Below, one piece after another: positions 1 through 3,000 of a stretch of 8,163 bases of DNA. The position numbers were made by a program. Each line of letters begins with the position of its first letter. The stretch's first letter is position 1. Source of the stretch: a virus (taxonomy: Duplodnaviria; Heunggongvirae; Uroviricota; Caudoviricetes); IMG/VR virus record IMGVR_UViG_2740892526_000007. The stretch is one strand, 5' to 3'.

Positions 1-3000
1 GGACTTCGGGGGAAAAACGAGTATTTTTAGTCATCCTGTTTACCTCTTTCTCAGGGAGTTTAGTCTCCAGGATTTCCGGGGCGGTTCAAGGCCTGTGCGT
101 ATTACGATGGCGATCAGTTGCCACCGGAAGTTCTTCAGGTACTGAAAGATCGCGGTCAGCCGATGACTATCCATAACCTCATCGCGCCTACCGTCGATGG
201 CGTTCTGGGAATGGAGGCCAAAACACGGACTGATCTGGTGGTGATGTCAGACGAGCCAGATGATGAAACTGAAAAACTGGCTGAAGCTATTAATGCTGAA
301 TTTGCCGATGCATGCCGCCTTGGCAATATGAATAAAGCCCGCTCTGATGCCTATGCGGAACAAATCAAGGCGGGCCTCAGTTGGGTGGAGGTCAGACGAA
401 ACAGCGATCCGTTCGGGCCTGAATTTAAGGTGTCTACTGTCAGCCGGAATGAGGTTTTCTGGGACTGGCTGAGCCGGGAGGCTGATTTAAGTGACTGCCG
501 ATGGCTGATGCGTCGCCGCTGGATGGATACCGATGAGGCAAAAGCTACATTCCCGGGAATGGCTCAGGTTATCGATTATGCCATTGATGACTGGCGTGGT
601 TTTGTCGATACCACGGTTACTGAAGGCCAGCCCAGTCCGTTGATGAGTGCATGGGAAGAGTATCAGTCATGGGATCGACAGCAGAACGAATGGCTTCAGC
701 GTGAACGCCGTCGTGTGCTGCTTCAGGTGGTTTATTACCGTACATTCGAGCGTCTTCCGGTGATTGAACTCAGTAATGGACGGGTGGTGGCCTTTGATAA
801 AAATAATCTGATGCAGGCGGTAGCTGTGGCATCCGGGCGGGTTCAGGTGAAAGTCGGGCGGGTAAGCCGTATTCGTGAAGCCTGGTTTGTCGGGCCACAC
901 TTTATTGTGGATCGCCCCTGTAGTGCTCCGCAGGGGATGTTTCCGCTGGTTCCTTTCTGGGGATACCGAAAGGATAAAACCGGGGAGCCATACGGGCTAA
1001 TTTCCCGCGCCATTCCGGCACAGGATGAGGTGAATTTTCGTCGTATCAAGCTGACCTGGTTGCTTCAGGCCAAACGCGTGATTATGGACGAGGATGCCAC
1101 CCAGTTGTCAGACAACGACCTGATGGAGCAGATCGAACGTCCGGATGGCATTATTAAACTGAATCCGGTCCGAAAAAATCAGAAAAGTGTCGCAGATGTT
1201 TTTCGGGTTGAGCAGGATTTTCAGGTTGCCAGCCAGCAGTTTCAGGTCATGCAGGAATCGGAAAAACTTATCCAGGATACCATGGGAGTGTATTCCGCAT
1301 TTCTCGGGCAGGATTCAGGTGCGACGTCAGGCGTGGCTATCAGTAACCTGGTGGAGCAGGGGGCCACAACCCTTGCGGAAATCAACGATAACTACCAGTT
1401 TGCCTGCCAGCAGGTGGGAAGACTGTTGCTGGCTTATCTTCTCGATGACCTGAAAAAACGCCGTAATCATGCAGTGGTGATTAATCGCGATGATCGCCAG
1501 CGTCGCCAGACCATTGTCCTCAATGCTGAAGGTGATAATGGTGAACTGACCAATGATATTTCAAGGTTAAATACACATATTGCGCTGGCGCCTGTTCAGC
1601 AGACACCGGCGTTTAAGGCACAGCTTGCACAGAGAATGTCAGAGGTTATTCAGGGGCTGCCGCCTCAGGTGCAGGCTGTTGTGCTCGACCTGTGGGTTAA
1701 TCTTCTGGATGTGCCGCAGAAACAGGAGTTTGTTGAGCGTATTCGTGCTGCGCTGGGGACGCCAAAATCACCGGATGAAATGACGCCGGAAGAACAGGAA
1801 GTAGCGGCACAACAACAGGCACTTCAGCAACAACAGGCAGAACTCCAGATGCGCGAGATGGCTGGCAGAGTGGCAAAACTGGAAGCTGACGCCGCCAGGG
1901 CACATGCAGCTGCACAACGGGATAATGCCAGTGCACAGCGGGAAGTCGCCCTGACACAGGGGCAGCGTTATGTGGATGCGCTTAACCAGGCACATACGGC
2001 AGAAATCATTACCGGCGTACAGAATATGGAACAGGAGCAGGACGTTCTTCAGCAACAGATGCTGTATACGTTACAACAGCGGATGAATGAAATGTCGCTC
2101 TGAAAACTCTGGCTTCAACTGAACCCCGTCATCGTACGGGGTTTTTTGTTTCCGGAGGTAAGCGTTCCGGGAGCGGTGCGCTTATTCGCGGGGGCAGCGA
2201 TAAGCCTTATTTACTCAACCATTCGGATCTGTCCGATAAACAGACCATGCGGAGTTATTTATGGATTTTGAATTTACGGGTGAAGAAACCCCGGAACAAC
2301 TGGAAAAAATGCTGGAAGGACTTGGGGATGTGGATATTGACAGTCACGCACAGGACGTCGTGACGGAAGATACCACGGAAAAACATGCGGATGAGGAAGC
2401 ACAGACTCAGACGGGCGATAACAATGTGGCACCGACGCCGGATGCCAGTGTGGAGCAGACGCAGGACGTGAAGGAGCCGGAAGCGAAGGGGGTGCTCACC
2501 CGCGACGGTAAACACGTCATTCCCTATGAAGTCCTTGAGGCTGAACGTTCCGGTAAGCAACGGGCCGAACAGGAAGCCGCACTTCTTCGTGGGCAGATAG
2601 CTGAAGAAAAACGCAGGGTGGAACTGCTGACGTCTCAGATCCACCAGGCCGGTATGAAGCCCACACCGTTACCGGAAAACGAAAAAATTTCTGATGAGCA
2701 GATTGCCCGTATCAGGGAGATGTATCCGGAAATTGGTGACGCGGTGGCTTCGCTCATCCGTAAAAATAACTATCTCCAGTCCCGTGTTCAGCAATCAGCA
2801 CAGCAGGCAGAAGGTAATGGTGGTGAGGATTTATCACCGGTTCTTGATGCGATGAATGCCGTGCCGGTGCTGAAAACGTGGCAGGAGTCCGATCCAGATC
2901 GCTTCTCGGTTGCTGTATCCATCGACGGGAAGCTCCAGAATGACCCCGCATGGAAAGACAAAACGCTCACTGAACGTTTCGCTGAAGTGGCCCGTCGTAC

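What the first reader, a model, noticed from the sequence alone, without database searches (positions are those of the whole stretch)
1780..2103. Portal protein ends in a Gln/Ala-rich helical tail resembling the C-terminal barrel of P22-type portals
The last ~100 residues (PEEQEVAAQQQALQQQQAELQMREMAGRVAKLEADAARAHAAAQ...QQQMLYTLQQRMNEMSL) are low-complexity and predicted helical. P22 portal has a long C-terminal helical barrel that projects into the capsid and is implicated in genome packaging and ejection; this tail looks analogous. Together with the compact gene set between capsid and fiber, it suggests a P22-like, short-tailed virion.
Basis: partly seen in the sequence, partly recalled or inferred. 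Interest (0 to 1): 0.4.

Follow-up and report, generated by a model that had tools for sequence, protein, structure and literature searches.

The report
Stx phage portal's C-terminal helical barrel

Summary
Window 1780-2103 encodes the last 107 residues of a portal protein: Q 21%, A 18%, one Pro, and Q+A+E 49% against 22% in the rest of the protein. The window is the late region of an Stx2 phage of the 933W/VT2-Sakai/phi24B type, 100% identical from base 87.

The portal belongs to Pfam PF16510 (P22_portal, 401 bits). A 75-sequence profile aligns collinearly with P22 gp1 (hhalign 98%, E 1.5e-13). A shared K-x-P-(D/E)-x-T-P-E-E-Q motif marks the crown/barrel junction in both, and the alignment runs on into the P22 barrel.

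All 129 diverse full-length relatives carry such a tail (62-424 aa), so it is not a strain-specific insertion. The family shares an A-x-A-x4 heptad at residues 636-659. AlphaFold2 predicts helices.

The decisive evidence is a 2026 cryo-EM preprint on phi24B, whose portal is identical over all 661 residues compared. It models a barrel of long helices at Pro610-Val696, which is window 1786-2046.

The virion is short-tailed. It is P22-like only in its portal: the capsid and adaptor families differ, and the closest structural relative is Ralstonia phage GP4.

In passing: an IS3-family element interrupts the portal gene here after codon 43. Already known; low interest.

The parts
1..88 (-). Terminal 88 nt of an IS3-family insertion sequence (IS629-like). 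The orfA start codon lies at 34 on the minus strand, reading MTKNTRFSPEV, and the terminal inverted repeat ends ...GGCGGTTCA at 88. It interrupts the portal gene after codon 43.
   Evidence: Identical through base 88 to the IS end in VT2phi_272 (L002), then diverges. 933W portal identity starts at 87, a 2-nt overlap. The adjacent transposase gives a sub-threshold match to NCBIfam transpos_IS3 (43.1 bits against a 160-bit cut-off) and is annotated as a transposase next to an IS3 family transposase in L002. 'IS629 transposase OrfB' is annotated in a related record.
88..2103 (+). Portal protein gene, codons 44-714 plus the stop. It is 100% identical to 933W L0114 and phi24B gp72. The mechanical ORF starts at TTG 118.
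   Evidence: PF16510 at 401 bits; phrog_156.
1765..1797 (+). Crown/barrel junction motif KSPDEMTPEEQ (residues 603-613). It aligns with P22 gp1 KKPE--TPEEQ (583-591).
   Evidence: BLASTP and hhalign alignments. The (T/D)PE motif recurs in most of the 129 relatives and Pro610 is the top residue in its column, 39 sequences.
1786..2046 (+). Barrel domain proper, Pro610-Val696. This is one long alpha-helix per subunit, twelve per portal, projecting into the capsid.
   Evidence: Modelled by cryo-EM in the identical phi24B gp72. Residue numbering checked. AF2 helices at 610-663 and 671-712.
1864..1935 (+). Family-conserved A-x-A-x4 heptads. Positions 636, 643, 650 and 657 form one set, and 638, 645, 652 and 659 the other. 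A643 is Ala in 84% of 75 sequences, A650 in 75%, A652 in 68%. L629 one heptad upstream is 85% hydrophobic. The likely role is the two helix-helix seams of the barrel.
   Evidence: Column statistics. Lag-7 autocorrelation of column Ala frequency is 0.67, reached by 0 of 10000 permutations. 83% of unaligned tails have positive lag-7 Ala z-scores. All six Ala of residues 643-659 are unchanged in PhiR5_2.
2047..2100 (+). Distal 18 residues (L697-L714), not modelled in the phi24B map. AF2 predicts a helix with lower confidence.
2121..2154 (+). Terminator-like hairpin (9-bp stem, 5 G-C pairs) followed by a T-run, 18 nt after the portal stop codon.
   Evidence: 1 site found, 0.5 expected by chance, so this is weak evidence.
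2261..3268 (+). 335-aa protein of unknown family (phrog_479) in the scaffolding-protein position between portal and capsid genes. By CDS counting it corresponds to phi24B gp70, which is not among the proteins modelled in the virion.
   Evidence: The scaffold role is inferred from position only.
3292..4506 (+). Major capsid protein (PF13252; phi24B gp69, T=9 capsid).
4562..4951 (+). 129-aa virion structural protein (phrog_486). By gene order it is the phi24B cementing capsid protein gp67.
5449..6009 (+). Virion structural protein (phrog_437). By gene order it is the phi24B neck adaptor gp64. An alternative GTG start lies at 5338.
6009..6659 (+). Tail adaptor (PF24175 SU10_adaptor, E 5e-31; phi24B gp62).
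6656..8163 (+). 5' part of the lateral tail fibre gene (933W L0121 / phi24B gp61), with long collagen-like Gly-X-Y runs. The contig ends inside them.

Best explanation
Window 1786-2100 encodes the barrel domain of a P22-family portal protein (933W L0114, identical to phi24B gp72). After the crown domain, a conserved K-x-P-(D/E)-x-T-P-E-E-Q turn starts one long alpha-helix per subunit. In the dodecameric portal, twelve such helices lie side by side. They form a hollow tube that continues the portal channel into the capsid interior. The 87 modelled residues at about 1.5 A rise per residue would give roughly 130 A (my estimate). The Gln/Ala/Glu-rich composition, near-absence of Pro/Gly and net charge of -7 per chain all resemble the P22 barrel. 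A family-conserved A-x-A-x4 heptad at residues 636-659 probably supplies the two small-residue seams through which each helix packs against its two neighbours (inferred). By analogy with P22 and Sf6, the tube holds the last-packaged, first-ejected DNA end on the portal axis. It would also organise the DNA spool around it and lie next to the internal ejection protein(s). These functions are inferred, not shown for this phage. What is shown: the sequence, family membership, the collinear alignment with P22, conservation of the tail across the family, and the helical barrel in the virion of a phage with the identical protein. In this particular genome the gene is split by an IS element, so the encoded barrel is probably not made as part of a functional portal.
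For: Identity of the locus: 100% identical to 933W, VT2-Sakai and phi24B from base 87. Family: PF16510 at E 1e-119. The Pfam match runs to ORF residue 595 (residue 648 of the full protein), which is 38 residues into the tail. In P22 the same model reaches residue 625, inside its barrel. Homology of the tail region: BLASTP aligns 933W 447-687 with P22 416-657. hhalign of a 75-sequence profile against P22 gp1 gives probability 98%, E 1.5e-13 and 601 collinear columns ending at P22 658. The profile search of the PDB hits GP4 8jov (4e-141), Sf6 7sfs (6e-16, reaching chain residue 686) and P22. Full-length P22 3lj5 scores 41.2 bits against 26-27.5 bits for the core-only chains 5jj1 and 4v4k. Family-wide feature: all 129 full-length representatives (26-61% identity) carry a tail of 62-424 aa with Q+A+E mostly 28-61% (one outlier at 19%). 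Non-random internal pattern: A/L heptads, lag-7 autocorrelation 0.67, 0 of 10000 permutations. Purifying selection on the + frame: against PhiR5_2, 32 of 46 nt differences fall at third codon positions. Structure: AF2 predicts helices and Foldseek's top hits are all podophage portals. Direct observation: the phi24B cryo-EM barrel, Pro610-Val696. Similar composition and charge to the P22 tail: Q 21% vs 19%, A 18% vs 14%, net charge -7 vs -6. Functional background for P22 and Sf6 comes from PMC5290284, PMC4992974 and PMC9728967.
Against: Pairwise sequence similarity to P22 in the tail is weak (23% identity, E 0.007). Part of it could reflect shared Q/A composition rather than position-specific homology. 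P22 does not clearly share the A-x-A heptad. Simple hydrophobic-periodicity tests were not significant for either protein. The AF2 monomer model has a low-confidence break at 659-670 and cannot show a 12-helix assembly. In intact, DNA-filled phi24B virions only a putative helical trace was seen, so how far the barrel is ordered in the infectious particle is uncertain. The cryo-EM source is a preprint. No functional data (barrel truncations) exist for this phage family in what I could read.
Confidence: 0.93

Rival explanations
1. The tail is a disordered, strain-specific low-complexity (poly-Q/A) extension with no defined structure or function. It would have arisen by replication slippage in CAG/GCN-rich DNA.
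For: It has the lowest sequence entropy in the protein, with runs such as QQQALQQQQ. The first ~18 residues after the junction (611-628) show little position-specific conservation in the family. The tail evolves faster than the crown: comparing the two translations printed by eye, I count about 16 of 107 residues changed in the tail against none in the preceding 60 (PhiR5_2).
Against: No tandem DNA repeat is found there. Tails occur in all 129 diverse relatives. Length is fixed at 714 aa (three exceptions at 711-713) across 120 near-identical clusters. There are conserved heptad positions and third-position substitution bias. AF2 predicts helices. A helical barrel was modelled by cryo-EM in the identical protein.
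Confidence: 0.02
2. The tail is helical but, in the DNA-filled infectious virion, is not a closed 12-helix DNA conduit. It would be partly unfolded and serve mainly as a docking site for internal ejection proteins (in Stx phages the giant gp47-type protein), as proposed for the distal half of the P22 barrel.
For: In phi24B the barrel could be modelled reliably only in emptied particles, and intact virions gave only a putative helical trace. P22 bubblegram work concluded that about half of the crystal-structure barrel is disordered in situ and presents binding sites for ejection proteins. The last 18 residues were never resolved. AF2 confidence drops at 659-670.
Against: In Sf6 the barrel (600-671) is very well resolved in DNA-filled virions, with DNA density inside its top. 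Poor barrel density in intact phi24B may simply reflect the surrounding DNA signal. This reading adds to the barrel explanation rather than excluding it.
Confidence: 0.25
3. The unusual composition reflects a second gene on the opposite strand: the 86-codon ORF at 1697-1957(-), which matches phrog_23519, or the 95-codon ORF at 1768-2055(-).
For: ORF 1697-1957(-) matches phrog_23519 over its full length at E 1e-57. Some GenBank records list two 'hypothetical proteins' under this stretch (H39).
Against: In PhiR5_2 (90.9% nt identity) the antisense ORF has 32 of 87 residues changed and an internal stop, while the + frame has 9 of 88 changed over the same span. 32 of 46 differences lie at + frame third positions. 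The second antisense ORF has no family match. CAG/GCN-rich codons read as CTG/NGC on the other strand and so lack stops. The PHROG is most simply a cluster of over-annotated identical ORFs.
Confidence: 0.01

Closest known systems
Stx phage phi24B (vB_EcoP_24B) portal gp72; cryo-EM preprint, bioRxiv 10.64898/2026.04.10.717836
   Same: The protein is the same: 660 of 661 aligned residues match, and the one mismatch is the TTG start codon read as Met. Residue numbering checks out: R501-N527 has the quoted sequence, and P610 and V696 fall where expected. The barrel of long helices extending into the capsid was modelled at Pro610-Val696.
   Different: In this window the gene lacks codons 1-43 because of an IS insertion. 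Nothing differs in the tail itself.
Salmonella phage P22 portal gp1 barrel (residues ~600-725; PDB 3LJ5, 5JJ3)
   Same: Same Pfam family PF16510. The alignment is collinear with a shared TPEEQ junction. Both tails are Q/A-rich, Pro-poor and mildly acidic: net -7 vs -6. The fold matches by Foldseek, E 1e-18 to 1e-20.
   Different: Only about 19-23% identity. The tail after TPEEQ is 106 aa against 140 aa in P22. The A-x-A heptad of the 933W family is not evident in P22. The P22 barrel is reported to be unfolded without DNA and to fold as the head fills, whereas the phi24B barrel was best ordered in emptied particles. The rest of the virion belongs to other families: P22 coat PF11651 and gp4 PF11650 against PF13252 and SU10_adaptor here.
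Shigella phage Sf6 portal gp3 barrel (residues 600-671 modelled of 708; PDB 7SFS)
   Same: The family profile hits it at E 6e-16 and the match reaches chain residue 686, beyond the modelled barrel. The modelled helix lengths are comparable: 72 residues in Sf6, 87 in phi24B. In both, the C-terminal end is unresolved.
   Different: Low sequence identity: 15% in the Foldseek alignment. Sf6 is a P22-like virion.
Ralstonia phage GP4 portal (PDB 8JOV)
   Same: It is the closest solved relative by sequence (phmmer E 8e-61; profile E 4e-141) and by fold (Foldseek E 3e-29). The alignment runs into its own Q/A-rich tail...QQQQAAAEQAQAQ.... The phi24B authors also name it as the closest tail architecture.
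   Different: About 23-27% identity. The portal is 781 aa with a longer tail, and only 547 residues are in the deposited chain, so most of its tail is not modelled.
E. coli phage SU10 (Kuravirus) portal with barrel domain (PDB 7Z44)
   Same: [quoted passage not shown] Foldseek gives E 6e-15. The window's adaptor belongs to the SU10_adaptor Pfam family.
   Different: SU10 has a prolate head and about 14% identity in the portal.

Membership tests
Pfam PF16510 P22-like portal protein | Scores above the curated gathering threshold of the family model | tested here: met
   401.1 bits against a 26.1-bit cut-off, E 1.1e-119. ORF residues 2-595 match profile positions 31-594 of 594. P22 gp1 itself scores 556.7 bits.
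Pfam PF16510 P22-like portal protein | End-to-end collinear homology with P22 gp1 | tested here: met
   hhalign probability 98%, E 1.5e-13, 601 aligned columns, profile 12-661 to P22 7-658. The profile search of the PDB hits the P22 chains at E 3e-10 to 2e-5. A single-sequence phmmer search did not reach P22.
Pfam PF16510 P22-like portal protein | Portal fold (wing, stem, clip, crown) | tested here: met
   The AF2 model has pLDDT 87 and pTM 0.78. The top 50 Foldseek hits to the PDB are all phage portals: GP4, Pan3, P22, KHP30, Sf6, crAss001, SU10, Pam1, N4, Pa223.
P22-type portal barrel domain | A long C-terminal alpha-helix directly following the crown, starting at the conserved Pro-Glu junction | tested here: met
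   The junction motif is aligned. AF2 helices lie at 610-663 and 671-712. Pro610 is the top residue in its alignment column, 39 sequences.
P22-type portal barrel domain | Twelve helices assembled into a tube that projects into the capsid | not testable with these tools
   Only monomer prediction was available. It is reported by cryo-EM for the identical phi24B protein, Pro610-Val696. The conserved A-x-A heptad is consistent with two packing seams.
P22-type portal barrel domain | A role in DNA packaging, retention or ejection | not testable with these tools
   This is inferred from the P22 and Sf6 literature. I found no genetic data for 933W-type phages.
P22-like virion (Lederbergvirus type) | P22-family coat protein (PF11651) | tested here: not met
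   The window's capsid protein is PF13252 Phage_capsid_3. P22 gp5 is PF11651. phi24B has a T=9 capsid.
P22-like virion (Lederbergvirus type) | P22 gp4-type head-to-tail adaptor (PF11650) | tested here: not met
   The window's adaptor is PF24175 SU10_adaptor. P22 gp4 is PF11650. phi24B has two adaptor rings, a nozzle, six collagen-like fibres and a needle.
Short-tailed (podovirus) morphology | No tail tube or tape-measure genes between head and fibre genes; short tail seen in particles | tested here: met
   Between the capsid gene and the fibre gene lie only a 129-aa cement protein, a 153-162-aa unknown and two adaptors. 933W and phi24B are classified in Sepvirinae, and the phi24B record is named vB_EcoP. 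Cryo-EM shows a short tail.

The most novel reading that the evidence does not exclude
In the 933W/GP4 branch of the family, the conserved A-x-A-x4 'alanine seam' (residues 636-659) may make the twelve-helix barrel an intrinsically stable, constitutively folded tube. This would fit its being best resolved in emptied phi24B particles. It would differ from the P22 barrel, which is reported to be unfolded without DNA and to fold as the head fills. If so, this barrel would not act as a DNA-pressure-sensing order-disorder switch. It would act as a rigid conduit or docking post, for example for the giant ejection protein. The portal 'DNA sensor' model would then not extend to all barrel-bearing podophages.
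Probability: 0.2. Interest if true: 0.4.

Novelty: already known. Interest (0 to 1): 0.12.

Why it matters
This confirms a correct annotation rather than a discovery. The C-terminal barrel of P22-type portals has been known since 2011 and is described as conserved in many podoviruses. It has now been modelled in an Stx phage whose portal is identical to this one. Three points are of practical use. First, Pfam PF16510 stops about 66 residues before the C-terminus, so the distal barrel goes unannotated by domain searches. Second, the tail is a structured domain with a conserved heptad, not disposable low complexity, which matters for anyone engineering or truncating Stx-phage portals. Third, in this genome the portal gene is split by an IS element, which probably leaves this Stx prophage unable to form infectious particles. 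That bears on predictions of toxin-phage mobility for the lineage.

Tried and rejected
(1) The first homologous-protein search returned only near-identical E. coli portals (at least 96% identity among the 120 listed), which were useless for judging conservation. The 50%-clustered representative search supplied the diversity instead.

(2) Single-sequence phmmer against the PDB did not reach P22. A profile was needed.

(3) Fourier analysis of Kyte-Doolittle hydrophobicity in the 3.4-3.75-residue band was not significant for the 933W tail (214 of 500 shuffles as high). It was not significant for the P22 barrel either (279 of 500), so the positive control failed and the test is uninformative.

(4) Period-7.0 Fourier power of Ala was weak for both the column frequencies and single sequences. 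An a/c doublet puts its power in the 7/3 harmonic, and the strongest period was indeed 2.3. Lag-7 autocorrelation was the appropriate statistic and was significant.

(5) Tang et al. 2011 (PMC3075339) is the source of the statement that the barrel is conserved in many Podoviridae. It is not held in the library, so I cite the statement through PMC5290284.

(6) A full-text search for '8JOV' gave nothing relevant. The entry's identity (phage GP4) came from Foldseek.

(7) I looked for the IS-portal junction elsewhere. No complete E. coli genome in the collection covers at least 80% of window 1-400. In the phage records the two pieces lie kilobases apart. The exact-product look-up failed for the TTG-start ORF but succeeded for the ATG-163 ORF. 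It showed that the window is the whole of contig LHAM01000128.1.

(8) I considered and rejected an overlapping antisense gene and a slippage-generated repeat (no tandem repeat in the region).
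Full report
**What is in the window.** The 8163-base window is 100% identical from base 87 onward to the late (virion) region of Stx2-converting phages 933W, VT2-Sakai and many others. An exact-product look-up shows that it is the entire contig LHAM01000128.1 of draft assembly GCA_001619195.1. In 933W the portal gene L0114 is 2145 nt (714 codons). It sits directly after the large terminase gene and before a 335-codon gene and the capsid gene. Window bases 88-2103 correspond to codons 44-714 plus the stop codon. The finding's range, 1780-2103, is residues M608-L714 plus the stop.

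**Checking the observation.** The 107-residue tail has Q 20.6%, A 17.8% and E 10.3%. Q+A+E is 48.6% against 22.4% in the other 554 residues (Fisher p = 9e-8). There is one Pro and three Gly, and aromatic residues are almost absent. The lowest-entropy 40-residue window of the protein lies here. No tandem DNA repeat underlies it. AlphaFold2 with a 75-sequence alignment (pLDDT 87, pTM 0.78) predicts two long helices, at residues 610-663 and 671-712 in full-length numbering. A low-confidence break falls around 659-670.

**Is it a portal of the P22 type?** It is.
- The ORF scores 401 bits against Pfam PF16510 'P22_portal', whose cut-off is 26 bits. It also matches phrog_156 'portal protein' over residues 2-656.
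- The Pfam match runs to full-length residue 648, which is 38 residues into the tail. In P22 gp1 the same model runs to residue 625, inside its barrel.
- Pairwise BLASTP against P22 gp1 is weak, at 23% identity and E 0.007. Its best segment is nonetheless collinear: 933W 447-687 with P22 416-657. It places KSPDEMTPEEQ opposite KKPE--TPEEQ.
- A profile of 75 diverse relatives aligns with P22 gp1 from end to end. hhalign gives probability 98%, E 1.5e-13 and 601 columns, with the same junction aligned and the alignment running to P22 residue 658.
- Searched against PDB sequences, the profile finds phage GP4 (8jov, E 4e-141), Pan3 (9vyf), KHP30 (7wmp), Pam1 (7eep), Sf6 (7sfs, E 6e-16, match to residue 686) and P22.
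- Full-length P22 chains score 41-42 bits, whereas chains truncated at residues 602-610 score 26-27.5 bits. The barrel part therefore adds score of its own.
- Foldseek of the AF2 model against the PDB returns only phage portals among the top 50, with GP4, Pan3 and P22 first.

**Is the tail a family feature or a strain-specific insertion?** A search of 1.84 billion cluster representatives gave 2633 relatives at E <= 0.001. I aligned the 129 listed representatives of at least 640 residues, which share 26-61% identity with the query. Every one has a tail after the junction, 62-424 residues long and typically about 90-130. Q+A+E is mostly 28-61%, with one outlier at 19%, and most keep a (T/D)-P-E motif at the junction. 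Among 120 near-identical E. coli clusters the length is 714 residues in all but three, which have 711-713.

**The tail has internal order.** The tail is also not featureless.
- In the 75-sequence alignment the first ~18 residues (611-628) are compositionally Q/A/E-rich with little position-specific signal.
- From L629 onward there is a clear heptad. Positions 629, 636, 643, 650 and 657 form one set, and 638, 645, 652 and 659 the other.
- These positions are occupied by Leu/Ile/Val at the start and then by Ala. A643 is Ala in 84% of sequences, A650 in 75%, A652 in 68%, A657 in 64%, A645 in 61% and A659 in 56%.
- The lag-7 autocorrelation of column Ala frequency is 0.67, reached by 0 of 10,000 permutations. 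Side peaks at lags 2, 9 and 14 are what an A-x-A-x4 repeat would give.
- In unaligned tails, 83% of sequences have a positive lag-7 Ala z-score and 33% are individually significant at p < 0.05. The sequences are related, so these are not independent trials.
- I read the two Ala columns as the two seams through which each helix packs against its two neighbours in a closed ring. This is an inference. The phi24B preprint does not mention heptads or alanines.

**Both strands.** Two mechanical ORFs lie antisense to the tail. One of them (1697-1957, minus strand) matches phrog_23519 at E 1e-57. I compared the region with phage PhiR5_2, which is 90.9% identical in DNA.
- 32 of the 46 nucleotide differences lie at third positions of the portal frame.
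- Over the span of the antisense ORF, the portal frame has 9 of 88 residues changed.
- The antisense ORF has 32 of 87 residues changed and an internal stop.

The antisense ORF is therefore an annotation artefact of CAG/GCN-rich coding DNA. The same comparison shows that the tail evolves faster than the crown. Comparing the two translations printed by eye, I count about 16 changes in 107 residues against none in the preceding 60. The six conserved Ala of residues 643-659 are untouched.

**Direct structural evidence.** A bioRxiv preprint of April 2026 (10.64898/2026.04.10.717836) reports cryo-EM structures of Stx phage phi24B. It states that portal gp72 has stem, clip, crown, wing and barrel domains and a tunnel loop. 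[quoted passage not shown] The barrel was modelled reliably for Pro610-Val696 in emptied particles, but only as a putative helical trace in intact ones. The phi24B portal matches the window's at 660 of 661 aligned positions, and the single mismatch is the TTG start codon read as Met. The numbering also agrees: R501-N527 has the quoted sequence, and residues 610 and 696 are Pro and Val. The barrel is thus window 1786-2046, and residues 697-714 (2047-2100) are unresolved.

**How it most likely works.** The following steps are shown: portal family membership; the crown followed by a Pro-Glu turn and a long helix; and a twelve-subunit portal with a helical barrel pointing into the head (for the identical protein, from a preprint). 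The following are inferred from P22 and Sf6.
- The tube extends the portal channel. I estimate about 130 A for 87 residues at 1.5 A rise per residue.
- It holds the terminal DNA segment on axis for ejection. Sf6 shows DNA density inside the top of its barrel.
- It is surrounded by the DNA spool. Its mildly acidic character (net -7 per chain here, -6 in P22) parallels the acidic outer surface proposed for P22 to repel DNA and keep the barrel straight.
- It lies next to internal ejection proteins, as in P22. In phi24B a giant candidate ejection protein, gp47, is packaged.

One point of contrast deserves note. The P22 barrel is reported to be unfolded without DNA and to fold as the head fills. 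The phi24B barrel was best ordered after ejection. Together with the alanine seam, this leaves room for a more intrinsically stable barrel in this branch. I give that reading a probability of 0.2.

**The 'P22-like, short-tailed virion' inference.** The short tail is correct.
- Between the capsid gene (3292-4506, PF13252) and the fibre gene (6656 onward) there are only four genes. They are a 129-residue structural protein, a 153-162-residue protein of unknown function, a 186-residue structural protein, and an SU10-type adaptor.
- Counting CDS features in the phi24B record maps these to gp67 (cement), gp65, gp64 (neck adaptor) and gp62 (tail adaptor). The fibre is gp61.

'P22-like' holds only for the portal. 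The capsid and adaptor belong to other Pfam families than P22 gp5 and gp4. phi24B has a T=9 capsid, two adaptor rings, a nozzle, six collagen-like fibres and a needle, and its closest structural relative is Ralstonia phage GP4.

**Other observations.**
- Bases 1-88 are the end of an IS3-family element. The orfA start reads MTKNTRFSPEV on the minus strand. The sequence is identical to the IS end in VT2phi_272 and then diverges exactly where the portal sequence begins.
- The portal gene is therefore interrupted after codon 43. About 20 similar contigs are on record for the same truncated product. No complete E. coli genome in the collection and no phage record holds the junction as one contiguous piece.
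- The contig's right end falls in the collagen-like Gly-X-Y repeats of the fibre gene. Both contig ends are thus assembly breaks at repeats.
- A terminator-like hairpin follows the portal stop codon at 2121-2144.

**Verdict.** The feature is already known: P22-type portal barrels were described in 2011 and are stated to be conserved in many podoviruses. The barrel of this very protein has been modelled in phi24B. The only small additions from this work are the family-wide A-x-A heptad and the IS-disrupted state of the gene. Interest is low.

Noticed in passing
window 1-88 (minus strand), junction at 87-89: The window starts with 88 nt of an IS3-family (IS629-like) element end, which abuts portal codon 44. 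The portal gene of this Stx prophage is therefore split by an IS and probably non-functional. The window is the whole of contig LHAM01000128.1 of GCA_001619195.1. About 20 similar contigs carry the same truncated product, but no complete E. coli genome in the collection and no phage record holds the junction as one contiguous piece.
   Followed up: partly
window 1697-1957 (minus strand): An antisense 86-codon ORF inside the portal tail matches phrog_23519 at E 1e-57. In PhiR5_2 it carries 32 of 87 residue changes and an internal stop, while the portal frame is conserved. That PHROG appears to be a cluster of over-annotated ORFs from Stx phage records.
   Followed up: yes
window 1864-1935 (portal residues 636-659): There is a family-conserved A-x-A-x4 heptad: Ala in 56-84% of 75 sequences at positions 643, 645, 650, 652, 657 and 659. 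Lag-7 autocorrelation is 0.67, reached by 0 of 10000 permutations. The phi24B preprint does not mention it and it is not evident in P22. It may form the helix-helix seams of the barrel.
   Followed up: partly
window 2121-2154: A terminator-like hairpin (9-bp stem plus T-run) lies 18 nt after the portal stop codon, inside what should be a long late operon. The chance expectation for the scanned region is 0.5 sites, so the evidence is weak.
   Followed up: no
window 2261-3268: A 335-residue acidic protein (phrog_479, no Pfam match) occupies the scaffolding-protein position between the portal and capsid genes. By CDS counting it is phi24B gp70, which is not among the proteins modelled in the virion. 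That would fit a scaffold that leaves the head.
   Followed up: no
window 7380-8163 (fibre gene 6656 onward): The lateral tail fibre gene has long collagen-like Gly-X-Y runs, interrupted by a short non-collagen segment. The contig ends inside them, most likely an assembly break at the repeat. The only tandem DNA repeat found in the window (7073-7115, period 21) lies in the Ala/Ser/Glu-rich coiled-coil part just upstream.
   Followed up: no
window 4974-5462 and 5338-6009: The two ORFs overlap by about 125 nt in the 933W and phi24B annotations. The VT2phi_272 RefSeq annotation uses later starts, equivalent to window 5001 and 5446. The true starts of the gp65 and gp64 equivalents are therefore unsettled.
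   Followed up: no
portal residues 501-527 (window 1459-1539): An Arg-rich loop (RRNHAVVINRDDRQRRQTIVLNAEGDN) is unresolved in the phi24B map, and its authors suggest that it contacts DNA. In the BLASTP alignment it lies opposite P22 residues ~474-500, inside the P22 'hammer' loop (456-505).
   Followed up: no
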